A stretch of DNA of 36,937 bases from a virus. Taxonomy: Duplodnaviria > Heunggongvirae > Uroviricota > Caudoviricetes. The first letter of the stretch is position 1; the number at the start of each line of letters is the position of its first letter. The DNA is taken from IMG/VR virus record IMGVR_UViG_2698536485_000021, one strand, 5' to 3'. The notes beneath the pieces were generated by a model, which saw only the letters and a list, made by a program, of their open reading frames with translations, made no database searches and was not told the DNA's origin. The position numbers and the translations under genes were made by a program. Below are positions 1,137-26,550 of the stretch, piece by piece.

Positions 1137-2813
1137 CTAAGCAACATGTAGTTCATCGTTGGCGGAAGTGGCTGCTTTGCGTTCCTGCTCAATAGCTAGT
1201 GACTCTCTATATTCTTTCGCCTCTGCAAACATTGTCCAGTGGGCATTGATGTTCATATCTTCAATAACCGATTTAATTTCTTTAATATTTACGTTAAAAA
1301 ACTCTTTTCGTGAGTTAATTTTATTGACCTGCTTTTCGTTGAAGACTTTATGCAGATGATTTTCTAATGACGGTGCATCATCACTATAAATCATCGCATG
1401 AACATCGAACGAAAAAGGAACACTAGCATCCCCAAGTTCACGAACACGATCAAGTGGTTCAAGGCGGCGTGTCATTCCAATTTTATATACATCTTCGCCA
1501 AATGAGCCAATATTGCTAATTATATAAACATGGCCTGATCTAGTTTGTTGAGCCATAGAAATAGCTCGTTGGTTTTTAGCTTCAGCTTCTTCATATTTTA
1601 ACTGTAGTTCAGCTATTTTTTGCTCTAAAGCTAAGCGTTGTTCTTCATTTGCAAGCATAAGCTCTTTCGTTGCTTTATTTATAGCTTGCTGAATAGCTTT
1701 TTCTTCTTTTTCGGCTTCTTTTATCGCTTTTTCATACTCTCTACGAGCTCTTTCCTCTTCACGAAGCTGTTCTTTAATCCTTCTTTGCTCCTCTTTTTCT
1801 TCGAGCATAATTTCATTAACTGCAACTCCCCATTTTAGCTCGTTGAGTCGTGCCTGAAGATAGATGTCACTTATTTTTGCGGATCTAAAAGCAGAGCCAT
1901 TATAATTTACAAGTTGAAATGCATCTTTTATTTCTTGGGAAAGTTTTCCAAAATTGTTGTGTTTGACTTTTGATAAAATACTGTCAACTCTTCCATTGAA
2001 GGCATCCAAAACAAAGTTGATAGCAGTATTACGCCTGTTTTGCTCAACATAATCACACGAAGCTGCTTTATTAGTTTTTATTAATGATTTTGTTAACTCC
2101 CTGGCTTTTTGTAATTCCTTGCCTGCATCTGTAAACTCATAATTTTCTGCCAATTCATCAAGTACACTACGGTTAGGGATGATCCATTCATCGCCATAAC
2201 CTTCAATTTTATTTTTCATTGATTTGGCAACTGCTTCATATTTTTCTGCAAACTCTTTAGCTTCATATGCTGAACCAGCAATCTCTTTTGCTCTTTCTTC
2301 TGCATCGGAAATAATTTTTACTGCGTTGTCATTAGCATTTGAGATCAGCTCATTTGCTTTACTGTTGGCATTATCAAGACGTTCTTTGGCTTTCAGGCGT
2401 GCATCGCGAGCGTCTTTGGTGATTGCTATAGCTTCGCTATTAGCGTTGCTTATTGTTATCTGAGCTTGATAACTTGCTTCGTTTACTGTCTTAGCTGCCT
2501 TTATTTGGGCTTCTTCTATTTTTTGCCTAGCTATTGAGTCTGCATTTTTTATCTTATTCTCTGCCTCCATCACTGCGCTGTGCAATTCTTCGTATTGCCA
2601 TAATGGTGCTGCTCGCCCTTCAAGCTCTGATAGATCTCGTGCAGTCTGTGCTAACTTTTCTTGATTTTCACTCAGTTGGCTGGAAAGGGCTATGTTGTTA
2701 GCCGTCTGGTTATCTATGGCGGCTTTGTGTTCTTTACTTTGCTTAAATAATATTATAGCTAGAACAGGGGCGAGAAATGCTAATAAGAATATAACGATGG
2801 AAAATGAATTCAT
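1137..2813 (-). CDS. Membrane-anchored coiled-coil protein with C-terminal T5orf172 (GIY-YIG-like) domain; N-terminal part resembles DUF4041
   Basis: 558-aa ORF; N-terminal hydrophobic helix (FSIVIFLLAFLAPVLAIILF); long low-complexity A/E/K/Q-rich helical region; C-terminal GHVYIISN...YKIGMT...FNVNIKEIKSVIE matches the T5orf172 pattern; AGGA RBS 8 nt upstream; region visibly AT-rich. Confidence 0.75.
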   Translation of the reverse strand: MNSFSIVIFLLAFLAPVLAIILFKQSKEHKAAIDNQTANNIALSSQLSENQEKLAQTARDLSELEGRAAPLWQYEELHSAVMEAENKIKNADSIARQKIEEAQIKAAKTVNEASYQAQITISNANSEAIAITKDARDARLKAKERLDNANSKANELISNANDNAVKIISDAEERAKEIAGSAYEAKEFAEKYEAVAKSMKNKIEGYGDEWIIPNRSVLDELAENYEFTDAGKELQKARELTKSLIKTNKAASCDYVEQNRRNTAINFVLDAFNGRVDSILSKVKHNNFGKLSQEIKDAFQLVNYNGSAFRSAKISDIYLQARLNELKWGVAVNEIMLEEKEEQRRIKEQLREEERARREYEKAIKEAEKEEKAIQQAINKATKELMLANEEQRLALEQKIAELQLKYEEAEAKNQRAISMAQQTRSGHVYIISNIGSFGEDVYKIGMTRRLEPLDRVRELGDASVPFSFDVHAMIYSDDAPSLENHLHKVFNEKQVNKINSRKEFFNVNIKEIKSVIEDMNINAHWTMFAEAKEYRESLAIEQERKAATSANDELHVA

Positions 2814-2833: not shown

Positions 2834-3121
2834 TCAATTTGAAACTATTGTACTTCTTATACAAGCAACCACTTCAATATCAGAAAATGCACATTCAAAG
2901 CTATTCTCTGTAGTTGTAATTTTAATCATACCTTTTGGAAGCTTTGTGATTTTTCGAATGGAATAGGTTCCGTCGATGTTGATTAACCAGTGTCCATCAA
3001 GTACTTCAGAAAATTTTTGATCACAAATGTATGTGACAAGCCCATCCTGAATAACAATTGGTGATGAAAGATTTGCAGGAAGAAATGATGAATCGAATAC
3101 ATATGAACCATCTTCAATCAT
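2834..3121 (-). CDS. 95-codon ORF: either the C-terminal domain of an interrupted 186 CI-like repressor or a separate small gene co-transcribed with the T5orf172 gene
   Basis: Same frame as the HTH ORF at 3191-3430, separated only by one TAA (3191-3193) and 23 open codons; weak RBS of its own; AT-rich like the cargo gene. Confidence 0.45.
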   Translation of the reverse strand: MIEDGSYVFDSSFLPANLSSPIVIQDGLVTYICDQKFSEVLDGHWLINIDGTYSIRKITKLPKGMIKITTTENSFECAFSDIEVVACIRSTIVSN

Positions 3122-3190
3122 TTTGCCTGCGGTAAGGCGAAACTTGGGAAGCTCTTCTGTGGCTACTGTCAGCGAGCTTTGCTTAAGTCC

Positions 3191-3430
3191 TTACCCGGTG
3201 GTTAACCATTTCAGTGAGGTTCCTGTTTCAAGAGCACATTGGATTATCCAGTCTGCAGGAAACGTATCCCGCAAATACCTGTTCGCCAGAGTGCTTTTTG
3301 ATACTTCCAAGTGATCAGCTAAAGCCTGTCGTGTCGTAAAGCCATAAGCTTCGACTAATCGCTCAATCGCAGCCTTACCACCTTTATTGGGATTTATTTT
3401 GATCTCACTTGGGTACTTTGATGTTGACAT
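3191..3430 (-). CDS. Immunity repressor, HTH DNA-binding N-terminal domain (186 CI-like); ends at an in-frame TAA
   Basis: 79-aa ORF with HTH-like segment (TTRQALADHLEVSKSTLANRYL); divergent from the apl/cox-like gene across a 95-bp control region, as in P2/186 switches. Confidence 0.7.
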   Translation of the reverse strand: MSTSKYPSEIKINPNKGGKAAIERLVEAYGFTTRQALADHLEVSKSTLANRYLRDTFPADWIIQCALETGTSLKWLTTG

Positions 3431-3779: not shown

Positions 3780-4289
3780 ATGTTTGATTACCAAGTTTCC
3801 AAACATCCACATTTTGATGAAGCCTGTCGTGCATTCGCATTGCGCCACAACCTGGTGCAACTGGCAGAACGTGCTGGCATGAATGTGCAGATTCTGCGGA
3901 ACAAGCTGAACCCATCTCAACCTCATTTATTAACCGCACCAGAAATCTGGCTGCTTACCGATCTGACAGAAGATTCAACGCTGGTAGATGGTTTTCTGGC
4001 ACAGATTCACTGCCTGCCATGTGTACCGATTAATGAGGTTGCAAAAGAGAAACTGCCGCATTACGTCATGAGCGCAACTGCAGAGATCGGACGTGTTGCA
4101 GCAGGTGCGGTATCTGGTGATGTAAAAACTAGTGCCGGTCGTCGTGATGCTATCAGCAGCATTAACTCTGTAACACGACTGATGGCGCTGGCTGCTGTTT
4201 CATTGCAGGCCCGTTTACAGGCTAATCCTGCGATGGCGAGTGCAGTTGATACCGTGACTGGCCTCGGTGCTTCATTCGGTTTGCTGTGA
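3780..4289 (+). CDS. 186 CII-like regulatory protein (Phage_CP76 family)
   Basis: [20 protein letters not shown]... resembles my recollection of 186 CII; position after apl/cox. Confidence 0.65.
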
Positions 4290-4296
4290 GGTGCTT

Positions 4297-4497
4297 ATGC
4301 TGACGAAAGAACCATCATTTGCATCGCTGCTGGTAAAACAAAGCCCGGCAATGCACTACGGTCACGGCTGGATCATGGGTGAGGATGGTAAACGCTGGCA
4401 TCCGTGCCGTTCACAAGATGAATTGCTGGCAGAACTATCTACGAAAAAACGGGGGAACAAATGGCTATTGAAGGCGCTGCGGCGACTGTTCCATTAA
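4297..4497 (+). CDS. Small early-operon protein, function unknown
   Basis: ORF from ATG 4297 with GAGGTG RBS, tightly packed in the early operon. Confidence 0.45.
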   Translation: MLTKEPSFASLLVKQSPAMHYGHGWIMGEDGKRWHPCRSQDELLAELSTKKRGNKWLLKALRRLFH

Positions 4498-4802
4498 GCC
4501 CCGGTGAACGCCTGAATGGACTTAATCACATAGCGGAATTAAGGGCGAAAGTTTTTGGTTTGAATATTGAGTCAGAGCTTGAGCGGTTTATTAAAGATAT
4601 GCGTGATCCACGGGATATCAATAATGAACAAAATAAACGGGCACTGGCTGCCATATTCTTTATGGCAAAAATTCCAGCTGAACGTCATAGCATCAGCATT
4701 AATGAGCTGACCACTGACGAAAAGCGGGAGTTGATTAAAGCAATGAATCATTTTCGTGCAGTGGTGAGCTTATTTCCCAGACGGCTAACCATGCCGAATT
4801 AA
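4461..4802 (+). CDS. Early-operon hypothetical protein
   Basis: 113-aa ORF, co-directional, overlaps neighbours by a few codons. Confidence 0.5.
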   Translation: MAIEGAAATVPLSPGERLNGLNHIAELRAKVFGLNIESELERFIKDMRDPRDINNEQNKRALAAIFFMAKIPAERHSISINELTTDEKRELIKAMNHFRAVVSLFPRRLTMPN

Positions 4803-4869
4803 CCAACTAATGAAATTAATGGCGTAAACCCGCCGGGCATCCCTTTATCTAAATTCAGGAGAATTGCTT

Positions 4870-9372: not shown

Positions 9373-9708
9373 TTACGAATGATCATTCTGTTTAGTCTTC
9401 ATGAGAAAATCCCGAATCTTTGCCAAGTTTGAATTTTCGGGGATTGAATCCATGTACGGATCACGCTCAAACACTAATTGCTCAGATTCAACGAAAGCCT
9501 GCCACTCTACTGGGTCTAGCTCAAATCCCATTGCTGTCATATCACTTTCATCTTCCCCCTCGATCCAGTGGACTAAATAAAACAATTCATCATCAGGAGA
9601 ATCATCCTCACCATCAACAATATCAACATCGGTTACAGTGATACGTAGGGTGGGATCGATTTTTGAGACATAAATTCCTAACTGTGGTATAGGGGGAATA
9701 TTGTTCAT
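9373..9708 (-). CDS. Small, strongly acidic protein of unknown function
   Basis: 111-aa ORF rich in D/E (DVDIVDGEDDSPDDE, EGEDESD); AGGAG RBS upstream; opposite strand to its neighbours. Confidence 0.6.
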   Translation of the reverse strand: MNNIPPIPQLGIYVSKIDPTLRITVTDVDIVDGEDDSPDDELFYLVHWIEGEDESDMTAMGFELDPVEWQAFVESEQLVFERDPYMDSIPENSNLAKIRDFLMKTKQNDHS

Positions 9709-10087
9709 GGAAACTCCTTTTATTGGTGTTTGCTATTTGAATAAAAATACGCCAAACAGAGTGTTAACTGTGAATATGGAAAGAATCGTTGTAAGTACCC
9801 CGCTTAGGTGTCCCATTCTATTTTAGAGGTTCTCGTGCATATGGATTATGTTATCTGAAAGTTAACTTCCGCTTCCCGTTCACAGCGAACATTCATCTTT
9901 GTAAACCCGTATGATCCGTTTTTCAAGTGGCCATTCAGATACGGATTTTTACTTCTTTGACAGTGCATGACTATGCTGCATGAAATCGCATGATCGATTG
10001 AGGATCGTCTTTGCTCAGATCCGCCAGAACTGGCGGGCTTTTGCTCATGTCATGCATGTGCATGAAAACCACTGCATAAAGCGGGCA

Positions 10088-10106
10088 GGCGTGGCGGGGA
10101 TACGAG
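10088..10106. other. Possible cos (cohesive-end) site: GGCGTGGCGGGGA...
   Basis: From memory, P2/186 cohesive ends begin GGCG(A/T)GGCGGGGAAAGCA; the first 13 nt match here and the rest diverges; position between gene A side and Q side is as expected. Confidence 0.25.
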
Positions 10107-10184
10107 CGCGCGCAATGCTATGATCTGGCTCTTTCAAAACTGTTAACGGTTCTTCACATTCTTAAATGATCATGGTAGCTTAAA

Positions 10185-10322
10185 CATGCACATGTAGGCA
10201 GATTTGTTGGTTGTGGTATCGCAATCAGTGATCTAAATGTTAGATGGATTCGCCTTCTGACATCCTTGTAGCCATTCTTGGGCTGTCCTATGCTTTGCGT
10301 AAGAGTGCCTACATGTGCCTAC
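10185..10322 (+). ncRNA. Retron msr-msd non-coding RNA (template/primer for msDNA), approximate bounds
   Basis: Perfect 13-bp inverted repeat GCACATGTAGGCA (10188-10200) / TGCCTACATGTGC (10306-10318) placed like retron a1/a2 repeats, ending about 35 bp before the RT start; total span fits an Ec67-size msr+msd. Confidence 0.5.
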
Positions 10323-10353
10323 CCTAACTGATAATCAAGGTTGATTTTTAGAT

Positions 10354-11856
10354 ATGGCACCCCTATCAATTTTAGAACGTTTACAAAACGCTGCTAACAG
10401 GCAAGATTTGGCTAGTATCTTGAATCTTAAAACTGCTTTTCTTACGGATGTTATTTATCGTTTAAAAGCTGAAACGCAGTATACACAATTTACTATTCCT
10501 AAAAAAAACGGAGCGCCGAGAGTCATATCAGCACCTACCACTAAGCTCAAAGATATTCAACGTAGATTAGCTGATGTTTTATATTTATGTCGTGCAGAAA
10601 TTTATAAAAAATATAATATTAATCCAGTTTTATCTCATGGGTTTGAAAAAGAAAAGTCAATTATTACGAATGCTGAACGGCATAGAGGTAAAACGCTACT
10701 ACTAAATATAGATCTTGAGGATTATTTTGATAGTTTTAATTTTGGACGTGTTAGAGGTTTTTTCTTATCAAACAGAGATTTTAGATTAAATAATACTGTT
10801 GCTACAACGATCGCACAAATTGCATGTTTTCAGAATGGACTTCCTCAAGGAAGCCCATGCTCTCCAATTATAAGTAACTTAATCAGTGGAATTCTTGATA
10901 TAAGATTATCAAAGTTAGCAAAGAAATACGGATGCAATTATTCACGGTATGCTGATGATCTTACATTTTCAACTAATAAAAAAACATTTCCAAAAGAGAT
11001 TGCTGATGTTGGCGGAGAGTCTGTAACCCTAAGTCCAACTTTAATTAAAGAGATTATAAAGGCTGGCTTTAAAATAAATGATAAAAAGACAAGGGTTTGT
11101 TATAAAACATCACGACAAGATGTTACTGGGTTGACTGTTAATAAAAAAGTGAATGTTGGCAAAGAATATGCAAAAGTAACGCGTGCCATGGCTCATTCTC
11201 TTTATAAAGATGGTTCTTTTGTTATTGTTACTGAATCAGGAAAGATTGAAAAAGGTACATGTGCTAAATTAGAAGGCCGTTTTGGATTCATTGACTCAAT
11301 AGATAAATATAATAATTTAAAACTAAAGAATGCAAGACAGTTGGAAAAGTACCAAAGTGTAAATCATGGATTAAATTACACTGCAAAATTGAATTCGAGA
11401 GAAAAAGCCTACAGTTATTTTCTATACTATAAAAATTTTCATGGAATGGAAATGCCAACAATACTCACTGAGGGTAAAACAGACCGTGTATATTTAAAGT
11501 GTGCTTTGAAGTCATTGGCGAATTCATATCCTTTATTGTTTAATTCTTCTGATGATAGCTCTAAAAATGAGTATCGTGTTAATTTTTTTAAAGCAACTGA
11601 AAAAACAAGCTATTTTCTTGACATTTCTGGCGGTGCTACAGACTTCAAAAGATTTATATTAAGATACCAAGAACAAAAAAAGAGGTTCGAGAAATTTAAA
11701 CCAAAGCACCCTGTTATTATGCTTCTTGATAATGACTCAGGCCCTAAAGATTTATTAAATCACTTAAAGGATAAAGTAAAAATTGTCCAAATGATGTTGA
11801 TACTATTCGTAAGGCAAGGTATACCCACATATTTGACAATCTCTATTTGTTATTAA
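10354..11856 (+). CDS. Retron reverse transcriptase fused to a TOPRIM domain (Retron-Eco2/Ec67-like), reading frame broken near the 3' end
   Basis: RT motifs NIDLEDYFDS, QGSPCSPIISN, RYADDLTFS and retron-type VTGLTVN; TOPRIM-like TEGKTD glutamate and LLDNDSG DxD motif. Confidence 0.8.
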   Translation: MAPLSILERLQNAANRQDLASILNLKTAFLTDVIYRLKAETQYTQFTIPKKNGAPRVISAPTTKLKDIQRRLADVLYLCRAEIYKKYNINPVLSHGFEKEKSIITNAERHRGKTLLLNIDLEDYFDSFNFGRVRGFFLSNRDFRLNNTVATTIAQIACFQNGLPQGSPCSPIISNLISGILDIRLSKLAKKYGCNYSRYADDLTFSTNKKTFPKEIADVGGESVTLSPTLIKEIIKAGFKINDKKTRVCYKTSRQDVTGLTVNKKVNVGKEYAKVTRAMAHSLYKDGSFVIVTESGKIEKGTCAKLEGRFGFIDSIDKYNNLKLKNARQLEKYQSVNHGLNYTAKLNSREKAYSYFLYYKNFHGMEMPTILTEGKTDRVYLKCALKSLANSYPLLFNSSDDSSKNEYRVNFFKATEKTSYFLDISGGATDFKRFILRYQEQKKRFEKFKPKHPVIMLLDNDSGPKDLLNHLKDKVKIVQMMLILFVRQGIPTYLTISICY

Positions 11857-12110
11857 CACCATTGCTTCCTGGAGGGAAAGAGTCTTGTATGGAGGATTTA
11901 TTTGATAGCACGGTACTATCAACGGTGCTTGATGGAAAGACATTTAATAAATCTAATGATACGGATACAAAAACAGAATATGGTAAGCATGTGTTTTCAA
12001 CAAAGGTTATAAAGGCAAATTGTAAAACAATTAGTTTTGAAAAGTTTAAAGTTATTTTTGATGGTGTTGAGGAAATTATTGCAGATTATTCAAAGAGGTG
12101 CAAAGTATAA
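11775..12110 (+). pseudogene. C-terminal continuation of the RT-TOPRIM gene in a shifted frame (apparent 1-bp deletion within 11775-11856)
   Basis: Second frame opens at 11775 and runs to 12110; 500 + ~87 codons is close to the ~586 aa I recall for the Ec67 RT. Confidence 0.5.
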
Positions 12111-12159
12111 CTGTAATTACAGGCAAAGAGTATGCTCTTTGCCTTGTATTGTGGGACGA

Positions 12160-13194
12160 TTACATATCTAAGTTATATTCTGTAAATGCGATAATATCTG
12201 TACCTAACCAGACATTAATCTCCTTGATCCGTTTTTGCATTGATATCAATTCGTTTCTTACGAATACCTTACTAGCCTTTTCCACATCCCCAAACCCCCC
12301 AACATTATTAGGCATAATCCCCATCATTTGCGGCGGCACGCGGTGCGCAGCCATCATGTCATCGCGGCTGACATTTTTGATATTCAGAAACTCATCCTTC
12401 GCCGCGACCTCTGACAACGGGATAATCTGAAGCCCGTCTTTTTTGCCGTTAGGCGAGTACATAAACAGATTGCGGAAGTTGCCAGGACCTTTGGCGCTTT
12501 TCATCGCATTGCGGAGGTTGTTCACATCCTCCTGGTTCTGCGCGGCATCGGTCATGTACATGATGAAGCCTGCATGACTACCGTTAATGTAATATTTGCG
12601 GCGGAACAGCGTGGCGGACTCGTTGAGCAAAGCGGATGGGATGGCAGAAAGATAGCCGGGCAGGCCGTAGATCTCCTGATTAATATCCGGTTCCATCAGA
12701 TGAAAAATGCTGCCTTTCGTGAACTGATACGGCTGGGTTGTCATACCGTATTGCACAAACCAGTAGGTATCTAGGTCTAACCCGCGTCGGGTATATTTTG
12801 CCAGGGCAGGCTCAAGGGCGATAACTTCACCGAAGCGGTTCGTGTGTTTCTCCAGGTAGGCGTTACCAAATACCAGGTAGTCCTGCACAAAACGTGAAAA
12901 AGCCTGCTGGCTGAGCAGCGGGTGAGGGATATAGGTACTGGTCAGAATGTTGCACTTTACTGCAATCGGGGAACTGTGATGCACGGCAGCGCGGAAGGTG
13001 CGCGCCAGTCCGTCAAAGCTGACGGGCGGCTCATACCAACGGTCCATCTGTACGCATTCCACATAGTCCAGTAATTCTCGGCGGTCCAGAACAGGAACGG
13101 GATCGCCGAAGCTGAATGCTTCGGCTGTAGTTTGACTTTTAAGCTGGATCTGATTCGTCGCCGCAGCGCGGTTCTTCTTACTCTTTCCCATCAA
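12160..13194 (-). CDS. Q: Portal protein (P2 gpQ-like)
   Basis: 344 aa, same length as P2 Q; conserved blocks (FGDPVPVLDRRELLDYVEC, AVHHSSPI, LFRRKYY). Confidence 0.9.
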   Translation of the reverse strand: MMGKSKKNRAAATNQIQLKSQTTAEAFSFGDPVPVLDRRELLDYVECVQMDRWYEPPVSFDGLARTFRAAVHHSSPIAVKCNILTSTYIPHPLLSQQAFSRFVQDYLVFGNAYLEKHTNRFGEVIALEPALAKYTRRGLDLDTYWFVQYGMTTQPYQFTKGSIFHLMEPDINQEIYGLPGYLSAIPSALLNESATLFRRKYYINGSHAGFIMYMTDAAQNQEDVNNLRNAMKSAKGPGNFRNLFMYSPNGKKDGLQIIPLSEVAAKDEFLNIKNVSRDDMMAAHRVPPQMMGIMPNNVGGFGDVEKASKVFVRNELISMQKRIKEINVWLGTDIIAFTEYNLDM

Positions 13195-25422: not shown

Positions 25423-26550
25423 TTAGTTAAATGTGTTGATTATTTTTTTTCCAATCTTTATGCATGGTTTTTCAATAGATAAGTAACTTATATATGAAAG
25501 AGAGTAAACTATGGGAAAACATATTATAGATGTTATGAATAACCTTAAAAATGCTGGTTCATGGTGGATCTCGGAATGATTTAACAGGAAGGCGCAAACA
25601 GGTGTTACAATCAGTAAGTGAATTAAGTACACAGAGTATGAAACATCACCAAGCCATACGCTAAATTTATTATTTAATGTTCTTTTGATTTGTTTTTTTA
25701 ATTCATTTTGTTTTGATACGTCGTCGCCATTGACAATATAAAATATAAAAGCGCATAATATTATTTGTATTACCAATTGTTTTGTATTTATATGAATATG
25801 ACTTGTTGATGCAATTATAATTACAAAGATAGCGAGTGCTAGATATGATTTGTTATGTTTAAAAATAGACATATAAACGAGCATTCCGGCAATAAAAATA
25901 GGAAGCTTAATTAAAATAAATGAAGGCATGTGAAACGATTTGAAAAAATCGGGGAAAATAAAAAACATAAAAGTGGATAGTATAGAAGTAATTAATAATG
26001 AAAGCCGCATTCCGAATTTTTCCGCGGCAATCATAATAAATGGGAATATTAAATAATATTGAGTTTCCAATCCTATGCTCCAGTCAGGCAGGGTAGTTCT
26101 GAAACTATAGTCAGGAATCACGCCAAAAATGAAGGAAAGATGTAGCATTATGTTTTTGACTGACTGGTCAGAAAATCTATTTACATCTGTTGCCGTTTGA
26201 GGATAGAAGTCGGCAATGATTTCTCTCATATTTCCAATATATGGGCCGAAATAGATAGCTATAGCTAATAAAATATAATATAGAGGAGCAATACGGAAGA
26301 ATCGCCTAATCCAAAAATTTCTCATTGTACTAAATTTAATCCATGGTTCAATATCTTGTCGTTCAATATAGTTTTTAGTCATCAAGAAACCTGATAAGAG
26401 AATGAACAAATCAACGCCATAAGTTGGTTCACCAAGAATAGGTATTCTGCATTCTGTTAAAATCGCTATATGGCCAATAAATACCCATACAGAGGCAAGT
26501 CCTCTTAGACCTTCAAGCTCAGGAAGCCATCCTTTTCTAGTCATGTGCAT
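25423..26550 (-). CDS. Integral membrane acyltransferase (acyltransferase-3 / OafA-Oac family), probable lysogenic-conversion gene
   Basis: 375 aa, polytopic hydrophobic profile, N-terminal LRGLASVWVFIGH signature; isolated AT-rich gene on the opposite strand between G and FI. Confidence 0.75.
   Translation of the reverse strand: MHMTRKGWLPELEGLRGLASVWVFIGHIAILTECRIPILGEPTYGVDLFILLSGFLMTKNYIERQDIEPWIKFSTMRNFWIRRFFRIAPLYYILLAIAIYFGPYIGNMREIIADFYPQTATDVNRFSDQSVKNIMLHLSFIFGVIPDYSFRTTLPDWSIGLETQYYLIFPFIMIAAEKFGMRLSLLITSILSTFMFFIFPDFFKSFHMPSFILIKLPIFIAGMLVYMSIFKHNKSYLALAIFVIIIASTSHIHINTKQLVIQIILCAFIFYIVNGDDVSKQNELKKQIKRTLNNKFSVWLGDVSYSVYLIHLLIVTPVCAFLLNHSEIHHEPAFLRLFITSIICFPIVYSLSYISYLSIEKPCIKIGKKIINTFN

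What the first reader, a model, noticed from the sequence alone, without database searches (positions are those of the whole stretch)
10185..12110. Retron (msr-msd plus RT-TOPRIM) in the variable region between gene A and the portal gene
A 500-aa RT with retron-type motifs and a C-terminal TOPRIM-like region follows about 35 bp after a pair of perfect 13-bp inverted repeats (10188-10200 / 10306-10318) placed like retron a1/a2. The RT-TOPRIM fusion, a Dam gene elsewhere on the element, the ~34 kb size and the location near ybjL together match what I recall of the published Ec67 retron element. This retron type has no separate effector gene, so the fused TOPRIM is the presumed effector.
Basis: partly seen in the sequence, partly recalled or inferred. 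Interest (0 to 1): 0.65.

Follow-up and report, generated by a model that had tools for sequence, protein, structure and literature searches.

The report
Frameshifted Ec67-family retron in P2-like prophage
This is a genuine retron of the well-studied Ec67/Eco2 type (a phage-defence element made of a small RNA plus a reverse transcriptase fused to a nuclease), but it is a diverged sister of Ec67, not Ec67 itself. In this copy a one-base deletion cuts off the end of the nuclease, so it is an ordinary and probably disabled member of a known family.

Summary
The observation largely holds. The perfect 13-bp inverted repeat (10188-10200 / 10306-10318) is real, not expected by chance, and is the retron a2/a1 stem. 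It covaries across eight homologous loci. A covariance model built without the window finds 10184-10323 as the only hit in the window (105 bits). The ORF 35 nt downstream scores above NCBI's curated cut-off for the 'retron Ec67 family RT/endonuclease' model and matches PADLOC RT-Toprim_I-C.

Two corrections:
- **It is not Ec67.** True Ec67/Eco2 occurs in E. coli fS25a, in the same P2/186-like prophage backbone at the same rcdA-ybjL site. The window carries a different cassette (~10131-12290): RT 57% identical, msr 84%, msd 57%, and a predicted 66-nt rather than 67-nt msDNA.
- **The 500-aa ORF is not an intact RT-TOPRIM.** A 1-bp deletion in an A6 run (now A5, 11778-11782) shifts the frame after residue 476. 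Strand beta4, the metal-B glutamate (E514) and the invariant lysine (K545) fall into a separate frame (11784-12110). Intact 585-aa alleles exist.

The deletion is real: six complete genomes and 462 public contigs carry it. The prophage also has nonsense codons in cI and the tape-measure gene.

Verdict: known kind, type I-C1 retron, effector most likely inactivated. Low interest.

The parts
10131..12290 (.). Variable cargo cassette. Relative to the Ec67-carrying sister prophage, identity is ~100% up to ~10100-10130, 36-77% across this span, and 90-99% again from ~12291. The cassette is AT-rich (GC 0.29-0.34, against 0.50-0.56 in the adjacent portal and terminase genes).
10173..10181 (+). Candidate extended -10 promoter element TGGTAGCTT, 6-8 nt upstream of the expected RNA 5' end. 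A TGnTAnnTT motif stands at the same place in Ec67 and in two other E. coli Ec67-family loci. This is an inference; the consensus sigma-70 scan found no full promoter.
10188..10200 (+). a2, the 5' arm of the retron inverted repeat (GCACATGTAGGCA)
10201..10201 (+). Predicted branching guanosine (equivalent to Ec67 rG15), within the invariant AGATTT motif that immediately follows a2
   Evidence: PMC12405507 and PMC12916289 for rG15
10207..10228 (+). msr stem-loop (9 bp, loop GUAU), equivalent to the Ec67 RSL. Four of its nine pairs covary among homologues.
10239..10304 (+). msd template. By alignment with Ec67 it predicts a 66-nt msDNA: 5'-TCTTACGCAAAGCATAGGACAGCCCAAGAATGGCTACAAGGATGTCAGAAGGCGAATCCATCTAAC-3'
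10306..10318 (+). a1, the 3' arm of the retron inverted repeat (TGCCTACATGTGC)
10354..11781 (+). Authentic part of the RT-TOPRIM gene (residues 1-476): RT domain with YADD at 10948-10959, thumb, and the N-terminal three quarters of TOPRIM (E373 at 11470-11472, D377, D459xD461 at 11728-11736)
11778..11782 (+). A5 run. Intact alleles have A6 here. This 1-bp deletion is the frameshift.
11782..11856 (+). Out-of-frame tail (24 aa, IVQMMLILFVRQGIPTYLTISICY) and the premature TAA stop of the 500-aa ORF
11784..12110 (+). Displaced C-terminal remnant of TOPRIM (equivalent to residues 478-585 of the intact protein). It holds beta4 (NLY), E514 (11892-11894) and K545 (11985-11987). Possible starts are TTG 11847 and ATG 11889.
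12121..12144 (+). Terminator-like hairpin between the convergent retron and portal genes

Best explanation
The locus is a type I-C1 (Ec67/Eco2-family) retron. It is carried as cargo in the cos-proximal defence hotspot, between cos and the portal gene, of a P2/186-like prophage integrated between rcdA and ybjL.

Expected mechanism in intact alleles (inferred from Eco2):
1. A ~135-nt ncRNA is transcribed from just upstream of 10188.
2. Its ends pair (a2 10188-10200 with a1 10306-10318).
3. The RT primes on the 2'-OH of G10201 and copies 10304 down to 10239 into a 66-nt msDNA.
4. msDNA and RT-TOPRIM assemble into a trimer in which the msDNA cages the TOPRIM RNase.
5. Phage nucleases (DenB, A1) degrade the msDNA, which releases the TOPRIM to cut tRNA and stop translation.

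In this window a 1-bp deletion (A6 to A5 at 11778-11782) truncates the protein after residue 476. The product keeps the ncRNA, the whole RT and the metal-A ligands. It loses strand beta4, the metal-B glutamate, the invariant lysine and the C-terminal helices.

The most likely state is therefore a defence-dead retron remnant in a decaying prophage. It may still synthesise msDNA.

Shown: homology, ncRNA structure and covariation, the frameshift and what it removes, and its population frequency. Inferred: msDNA production, priming and termination sites, and loss of defence.
For: Family assignment:
- NCBIfam NF038237 retron_Ec67_fus scores 627 bits against a cut-off of 450. The 500-aa ORF covers profile positions 1-465 of 572 and the 87-aa ORF covers 491-572.
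- PADLOC RT-Toprim_I-C gives 2e-189, split in the same way.
- PDB Retron Ec67 (9lm3, 9i2f) matches at E = 5e-217 over the full length of the intact allele.

ncRNA:
- It aligns with published Eco2, with the sequence taken from PMC12956279 supplementary file 1a.
- In an 8-locus alignment the a1/a2 helix is 99% paired, 7 of 12 pairs show compensatory changes, and 0 of 500 shuffles reach the observed score. Slid controls are at most 46% paired.
- A covariance model trained without the window hits 10184-10323 at 104.6 bits as the only hit in the window. It also hits an untrained Campylobacter locus.

Frameshift:
- Ec1117 and seven other complete genomes have A6 and a 585-aa ORF. The window and six genomes have A5.
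- The first 476 aa are identical to the intact allele.
- Family-invariant residues N496, L497, Y498, E514, F517, L522, K545, F548, I560, F562 and F565 lie after the break.
- For Eco2, alanine substitutions at the reported TOPRIM active-site residues, which include S513 and E515, abolish defence (PMC12405507).
- A TOPRIM-dead Eco2 still makes msDNA and still trimerises (PMC12916289).

Reality of the deletion:
- The exact 500-aa product is on 462 public contigs and the intact one on 510.
- Every context that was read is the same prophage.

Prophage decay: nonsense codons in cI (TAA 3191-3193) and in the tape-measure gene (TAG 29288-29290), both flagged by PGAP. Both genes are intact in Ec1117.

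Hotspot context: PMC9122126.
Against: - No experimental data exist for this allele. msDNA production, the priming G and the termination site are extrapolated from Ec67, whose RT is only 57% identical.
- Rfam has no family that matches this ncRNA.
- The frameshifted allele is about as common in public assemblies as the intact one. That could mean it is tolerated or even favoured, rather than simply decaying.
- A -1 slip of tRNA-Lys on GUA AAA AUU would restore exactly the wild-type protein, so low-level full-length product cannot be excluded.
- The C-terminal remnant remains an open frame with possible starts (TTG 11847, ATG 11889).
- Too few substitutions have accumulated since the deletion to show relaxed selection: 3 synonymous changes upstream of it and 1 non-synonymous change downstream of it.
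Confidence: 0.83

Rival explanations
1. The A5 allele is still a working defence system. Full-length RT-TOPRIM would be made at a low level by -1 ribosomal slippage (or transcriptional slippage) on the A-run. Alternatively, the 476-aa fragment and the C-terminal fragment (87 aa from TTG 11847, or 73 aa from ATG 11889) would reassemble into an active TOPRIM.
For: - A -1 shift of tRNA-Lys on GTA AAA ATT yields ...KVKNCP..., identical to the intact protein (read).
- The downstream frame is fully open from 11784 to 12110.
- The allele is on 462 contigs.
- GGAGGG lies upstream of ATG 11889.
Against: - The site is not a canonical X XXY YYZ heptamer, and five A's are too few for efficient transcriptional slippage.
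- No stimulatory structure lies downstream (z = 0.21).
- A6 is the ancestral state shared by all in-frame homologues, so nothing suggests a programmed site.
- Either split product would lack residues 477-498 of the intact protein, which run up to and include the invariant NLY (496-498) at the start of beta4.
- Two other genes in the same prophage carry nonsense mutations.
Confidence: 0.06
2. The single-base deletion is an assembly or sequencing error in a homopolymer, and the gene is actually intact.
For: The difference is one base in an A-run, which is a typical error site.
Against: - The same allele appears in six independently assembled complete genomes from Germany, the USA and Japan.
- The exact 500-aa product is on 462 contigs from several sources, and the 73-aa remnant on 682.
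- The intact A6 allele is assembled correctly in eight other complete genomes.
Confidence: 0.02
3. The RT is not a retron RT but belongs to another prokaryotic RT class (Abi, DRT, group II intron), and the inverted repeat is coincidental.
For: Weak sub-threshold matches to the group II intron RT and Drt2 models, as expected for any RT.
Against: - Group II intron RT scores 57 bits against a cut-off of 300. Drt2 scores 41 against 390. The Ec67 family model scores 627 against 450.
- The ncRNA is homologous to Eco2 and supported by covariation and an independent covariance model.
- Solved retron Ec67 structures are the top PDB hit.
Confidence: 0.01
4. The frameshift was positively selected. In this lineage the intact retron would have been toxic, for example if triggered by a nuclease from another resident prophage, and inactivating the TOPRIM rescued fitness while RT and msDNA were kept.
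For: - The allele is frequent.
- The isolated Eco2 TOPRIM domain is toxic when uncaged (PMC12405507).
- The ncRNA and the RT part are still identical to those of intact-allele strains.
Against: - There is no evidence of a resident trigger.
- Frequency can be explained by clonal expansion and heavy sampling of one lineage.
- Parallel nonsense mutations in cI and the tape-measure gene point to general decay.
- Only one inactivating event is seen, not recurrent independent ones.
Confidence: 0.08

Closest known systems
Retron Ec67 / Retron-Eco2 (type I-C1; PDB 9LM3, 9I2F, 9I2G, 9S1F)
   Same: - Same architecture: ncRNA followed by a single RT-TOPRIM gene and no separate effector.
- Same phage backbone, same hotspot (cos to portal gene) and same chromosomal site (rcdA-ybjL).
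- msr is 84% identical, with the same AGATTT branch context and hairpin.
- YADD, TEGKTD, DxD, E515 and K546 equivalents are all conserved in the intact allele.
   Different: - RT-TOPRIM is only 57% identical (585 versus 586 aa).
- msd plus a1 is 57% identical, and the predicted msDNA is 66 nt rather than 67 nt.
- The a1/a2 arms differ by compensatory changes.
- In this window the gene is broken after residue 476.
Other E. coli Ec67-family retrons (the ST131-type locus next to dhaR with an ABC-three-component system, L005; and L004)
   Same: Same family model, with ncRNA 74-78% identical to the window's. They carry the same GGTAT-containing msr hairpin as the window.
   Different: - They are not in P2-like prophages.
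- RT is 53-54% identical.
- They are present in more than 500 of 5426 complete genomes, against 14 for the window's allele.
P2 old / tin and other cargo of the P2 cos-proximal hotspot (Rousset et al. 2022, PMC9122126)
   Same: Same position in the phage genome, between gpA and gpQ next to cos. Same role as exchangeable anti-phage cargo. OLD also uses a TOPRIM nuclease.
   Different: OLD is an ATPase-TOPRIM protein with no RT or ncRNA. The window's cargo is a retron.

Membership tests
Retron type I-C (Ec67/Eco2 family) | RT of the retron clade that scores above the curated family threshold | tested here: met
   NF038237 scores 627 bits against a cut-off of 450. PADLOC RT-Toprim_I-C gives 2e-189. 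YADD, NAERH and VTGL motifs are present.
Retron type I-C (Ec67/Eco2 family) | msr-msd ncRNA immediately upstream on the same strand, flanked by the a1/a2 inverted repeats | tested here: met
   There is a 13-bp perfect inverted repeat, with 7 of 12 pairs compensatory across 8 loci. An independent covariance model hits at 104.6 bits, and it is the only hit in the window.
Retron type I-C (Ec67/Eco2 family) | Conserved branching G directly 3' of a2 | tested here: met
   G10201 lies in the AGATTT motif that is invariant in all 8 aligned loci and aligns with Ec67 rG15. Branching itself was not tested.
Retron type I-C (Ec67/Eco2 family) | Complete TOPRIM nuclease fused in one polypeptide to the RT (E, DxD, metal-B Glu, conserved Lys) | tested here: not met
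   In this window the frame breaks after residue 476. E514, K545 and beta4 are in another frame. The feature is met in the intact A6 allele of 8 other genomes.
Retron type I-C (Ec67/Eco2 family) | No separate effector gene in the cassette | tested here: met
   Between the cos-proximal backbone (~10130) and the portal gene stop (12160) there is only the ncRNA and this gene.
Retron type I-C (Ec67/Eco2 family) | Production of branched msDNA | not testable with these tools
   Requires msDNA extraction from a carrier strain.
Retron Ec67 itself (the published element) | Sequence identity of ncRNA and RT with published Ec67/Eco2 | tested here: not met
   RT is 57% identical and the ncRNA 67% identical. 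True Ec67 was found 100% identical in fS25a instead.
Group II intron RT / DRT / RT-TIR retron (type XII) | Score above the curated family cut-off | tested here: not met
   TIGR04416 scores 57 against 300. Drt2 scores 41 against 390. NF042941 RT-TIR scores 291 against 600.

The most novel reading that the evidence does not exclude
The truncated allele may be retained in a widespread E. coli lineage because an 'effector-less' retron (ncRNA plus RT plus a catalytically incomplete TOPRIM) does something useful. It might make msDNA that titrates or decoys phage nucleases. It might act as a dominant-negative partner of other Ec67-family retrons. Or it might give a tuned low level of full-length enzyme through -1 slippage on the A-run.
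Probability: 0.06. Interest if true: 0.5.

Novelty: new member of a known kind. Interest (0 to 1): 0.2.

Why it matters
The finding matters little for discovery. The family is curated by NCBI and PADLOC, and its structure and mechanism were solved in 2025-2026.

It has three modest uses:
- It shows that the Ec67 slot of this P2-like prophage carries at least two deeply diverged type I-C1 alleles with different msd sequences. That pair is a natural set for asking what in the msDNA sets trigger specificity.
- It supplies a natural TOPRIM-truncation allele, common in public assemblies. This allele could test whether msDNA synthesis and trimer formation survive loss of the nuclease C-terminus.
- It is a caution for automated annotation. 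PGAP names the 500-aa fragment as a retron RT/endonuclease without marking it as disrupted.

Tried and rejected
- **Rfam, all families, E up to 10, over 9800-12400.** Only chance snoRNA/lncRNA matches and no retron family. I therefore built my own covariance model.
- **Megablast of the cassette against 50,697 phage records.** No match. Only the cos-proximal backbone (9962-10127) matches P2-like phages.
- **Scan of genome contigs with the protein.** It returned only distant relatives at 32-44% identity. These were useful for covariation but gave no close relatives.
- **Structure prediction on the intact 585-aa allele.** I ran no further search on the truncated ORF because solved Ec67 structures already cover the fold.
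- **Search for att direct repeats.** Only a 14-nt exact repeat (AACAAAAAACCCAT) was found, and one copy lies outside the window. Not pursued.
- **Consensus sigma-70 scan.** No full promoter upstream of msr. Only a conserved extended -10-like motif, seen by alignment.
- **Test for a frameshift-stimulating structure after the A-run.** None.
- **DNA-parameter folding of the predicted msDNA.** Only weak short hairpins, -4.0 kcal/mol against -6.2 for Ec67. Nothing can be concluded about a three-way junction.
- **First protein alignment attempt.** It failed because L012 contains a stop codon, so L012 was dropped.
Full report
**1. The observation**

GCACATGTAGGCA lies at 10188-10200 and TGCCTACATGTGC at 10306-10318. 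The arms are 13 nt, 100% complementary, and 105 nt apart.

It is not a chance feature. In 300 shuffles of 10000-10500 the longest perfect inverted repeat was at most 11 nt. The 138-nt stretch 10185-10322 folds at -54.8 kcal/mol, against -35.3 +/- 3.5 for dinucleotide shuffles (z = -5.6).

The ATG at 10354 is 35 nt after the 3' arm and opens a 500-aa ORF ending at 11856. That ORF has a complete Pfam RVT_1 domain at residues 48-262 (3.5e-27).

**2. What the gene is, and the break in it**

- PADLOC assigns the 500-aa ORF to RT-Toprim_I-C (2e-189), but it covers only profile positions 7-455 of 568. The next ORF (11847-12110, 87 aa, another frame) covers positions 473-555 of the same profile.
- NCBIfam gives the same picture. 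NF038237 'retron Ec67 family RNA-directed DNA polymerase/endonuclease' scores 627 bits (cut-off 450) over profile 1-465 of 572, and the 87-aa ORF matches 491-572.
- The group II intron RT (57 against 300), Drt2 (41 against 390) and RT-TIR (291 against 600) models are far below threshold.

Fourteen of 5426 complete E. coli genomes carry this locus at 99% identity or more. Six have the window's 2101-nt version, which PGAP annotates as a 500-aa RT plus a 73-aa hypothetical protein. Eight have 2102 nt and one 585-aa gene.

The only length difference is one A: GTAAAAAATTG in strain Ec1117 against GTAAAAATTG in the window, at 11778-11782. The window product is identical to the intact protein for 476 residues. 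It then reads 24 out-of-frame residues and stops. The authentic C-terminus (residues 478-585) is still open in the other frame at 11784-12110.

The deletion is not an assembly artefact. The exact 500-aa product is recorded on 462 public contigs, the intact 585-aa product on 510, and the 73-aa remnant on 682. Every context read for the 500-aa product is the same prophage.

**3. What the break removes**

I aligned nine family members spanning 40-57% identity. The invariant residues fall as follows:
- Before the break: E373, G374, K375, T376, D377, D459 and N460.
- After the break: N496, L497, Y498, E514, F517, L522, K545, F548, I560, F562 and F565.

For Eco2, Wang et al. assign E374/D460/D462 to metal A and D378/S513/E515 to metal B, plus a catalytic lysine. 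They report that alanine substitutions abolish defence (PMC12405507).

They call the lysine 'K562', but residue 562 of Ec67 is Asp. The family-invariant lysine is K546, which is K545 here. The number is probably OLD-nuclease numbering.

The 500-aa product therefore lacks one metal-B ligand, the conserved lysine, the last strand of the TOPRIM sheet and the C-terminal helices.

Jasnauskaite et al. show that a TOPRIM-dead Eco2 still makes msDNA and still trimerises (PMC12916289). msDNA synthesis by the truncated protein is therefore plausible, provided it folds.

**4. The ncRNA**

The published Eco2 sequence (PMC12956279, supplementary file 1a) aligns with 10188-10318 at 67% identity overall. The msr part is 84% identical and the msd plus a1 part 57%.

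By that alignment:
- the branching G (Ec67 rG15) is G10201, inside an AGATTT motif;
- the msr hairpin is 10207-10215 paired with 10220-10228;
- the msd template is 10239-10304, predicting a 66-nt msDNA.

Ec67-family loci elsewhere in E. coli (L004, L005), and distant ones from Bacillus, Methylobacterium, Marinicrinis and an alphaproteobacterial MAG, have inverted repeats of different sequence at the same position, with 117-121 nt between the arms and ending just before the RT.

In the 8-sequence alignment RNAalifold recovers the a1/a2 helix and the msr hairpin. The a1/a2 helix is 99% paired, with compensatory changes in 7 of 12 pairs. None of 500 shuffles reaches the observed covariation score or paired fraction. 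Sliding the partner by 1-3 columns drops pairing to 28-46%.

A covariance model built from the seven other loci, with the window left out, hits 10184-10323 (+) at 104.6 bits (E about 4e-30). This is the only hit in the 36.9-kb window. The model also finds an untrained Campylobacter locus directly upstream of its RT.

Rfam has no matching family.

**5. Is it Ec67?**

No. The published Eco2 fragment (399 nt) is 100% identical to E. coli fS25a (L015 3999-4397). That strain's RT equals the PDB Ec67 chain over residues 4-580.

The fS25a prophage has the same gene order: Dam, replication endonuclease, DinI, DUF8087, retron, portal. It lies between rcdA and ybjL, as does the window's prophage.

Window and fS25a are about 100% identical up to ~10100, 36-77% identical over 10101-12290, and 90-99% identical beyond. 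The shared backbone ends at ...GGGGATACGAGCGCGCGC, at about 10130.

The intact form of the window's RT is 57% identical to Ec67 RT.

The cassette is AT-rich (GC 0.29-0.34). It occupies the cos-proximal gpA-gpQ hotspot described by Rousset et al. (PMC9122126). The conserved cos-region homology to P2-like phages covers 9962-10127.

**6. State of the prophage**

The window's cI gene has a TAA at codon 80 (3191-3193), and the tape-measure gene a TAG at codon 58 (29288-29290). PGAP flags both as pseudogenes in the near-identical strain OkiPb01680, which has 7 mismatches to the window over 36,937 nt. Both genes are annotated intact in Ec1117, which carries the intact retron.

The retron frameshift is thus one of at least three inactivating lesions in this copy of the element.

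**7. Mechanism and alternatives**

Best explanation: this is a type I-C1 retron that, when intact, should work as Eco2 does. The msDNA cages a trimeric RT-TOPRIM. Phage nucleases DenB or A1 degrade the msDNA. The freed TOPRIM cuts tRNA and halts translation (PMC12916289, PMC12405507). In this window the effector is truncated, so defence is most likely lost.

Low-probability alternatives:
- **Slippage.** A -1 slip of tRNA-Lys on GUA AAA AUU would regenerate exactly the wild-type sequence. However, the site is not a canonical heptamer and nothing structured follows it (z = 0.21). A6 is clearly ancestral.
- **Reassembly of the two fragments.** They would still lack residues 477-498.
- **Positive selection for loss of a toxic effector.**

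Sequencing error and a non-retron RT are effectively excluded.

**8. Verdict**

The feature is real and correctly recognised as a retron. It is a previously uncharacterised but automatically annotated member of a known, mechanistically solved family, and in this copy it is a frameshifted remnant. Interest is low (0.2).

Noticed in passing
window 1137-2813 (-): A 558-aa protein sits between the integrase and cI. It has DUF4041 plus T5orf172/MUG113 (GIY-YIG-like) domains and matches PADLOC PD-Lambda-1 at 6e-120. PGAP calls it 'SNIPE associated domain-containing protein'. This is a second, apparently intact, single-gene defence system on the same prophage. Ec1117 and fS25a carry a KAP-family NTPase at this position instead.
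   Followed up: partly
window 2834-3430 (-), stop at 3191-3193: The cI repressor gene has an in-frame TAA at codon 80, and PGAP flags it as a pseudogene in the near-identical strain. How a 186-like prophage persists with a truncated repressor is unexplained. Only the N-terminal HTH part would be made.
   Followed up: partly
window 29117-32194 (+), stop at 29288-29290: The tail tape-measure gene has an in-frame TAG at codon 58, so the prophage is probably defective for virion production.
   Followed up: partly
window 25423-26544 (-): An Acyl_transf_3 family acyltransferase (373 aa) sits between the tail-fibre assembly and tail-sheath genes, at the Z/fun-type cargo position. Ec1117 and fS25a carry a recombinase/invertase and alternative tail-fibre segments there. 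It may be a surface-polysaccharide-modifying lysogenic-conversion gene.
   Followed up: partly
window 12160-12290 (-): The low-identity cassette relative to the Ec67-carrying sister prophage extends about 130 nt into the 3' end of the portal gene. The recombination boundary therefore lies inside the portal coding sequence, not at its stop codon.
   Followed up: no
L005 / L016 (E. coli ST131-type genomes, next to dhaR): A third Ec67-family retron (RT 53% identical, ncRNA ~74% identical) is present in more than 500 of 5426 complete E. coli genomes. It lies next to an 'ABC-three component system' and outside any P2-like phage. In strain CH4794 (L016) an IS1 element (4115-4812) is inserted at the 3' end of the ncRNA, splitting it from the RT.
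   Followed up: partly
L015 3994-5934 (E. coli fS25a): PGAP annotates the true Ec67 RT as a 646-aa CDS that starts inside the msr-msd region. That is 60 codons upstream of the experimentally used start (586 aa). This is an annotation over-extension across the ncRNA.
   Followed up: no
literature, PMC12405507: The 'catalytic lysine K562' quoted for Eco2 does not fit Ec67 numbering, because residue 562 is Asp. The family-invariant lysine is K546 (YGK motif). The number probably comes from the class 2 OLD nuclease used for comparison.
   Followed up: partly
window 9373-9708 (-): A 111-aa acidic DUF8087 ORF lies between DinI and cos. It is 100% conserved between the window, Ec1117 and fS25a prophages and has no Pfam or PADLOC hit in my scans. 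Its function is unknown.
   Followed up: partly
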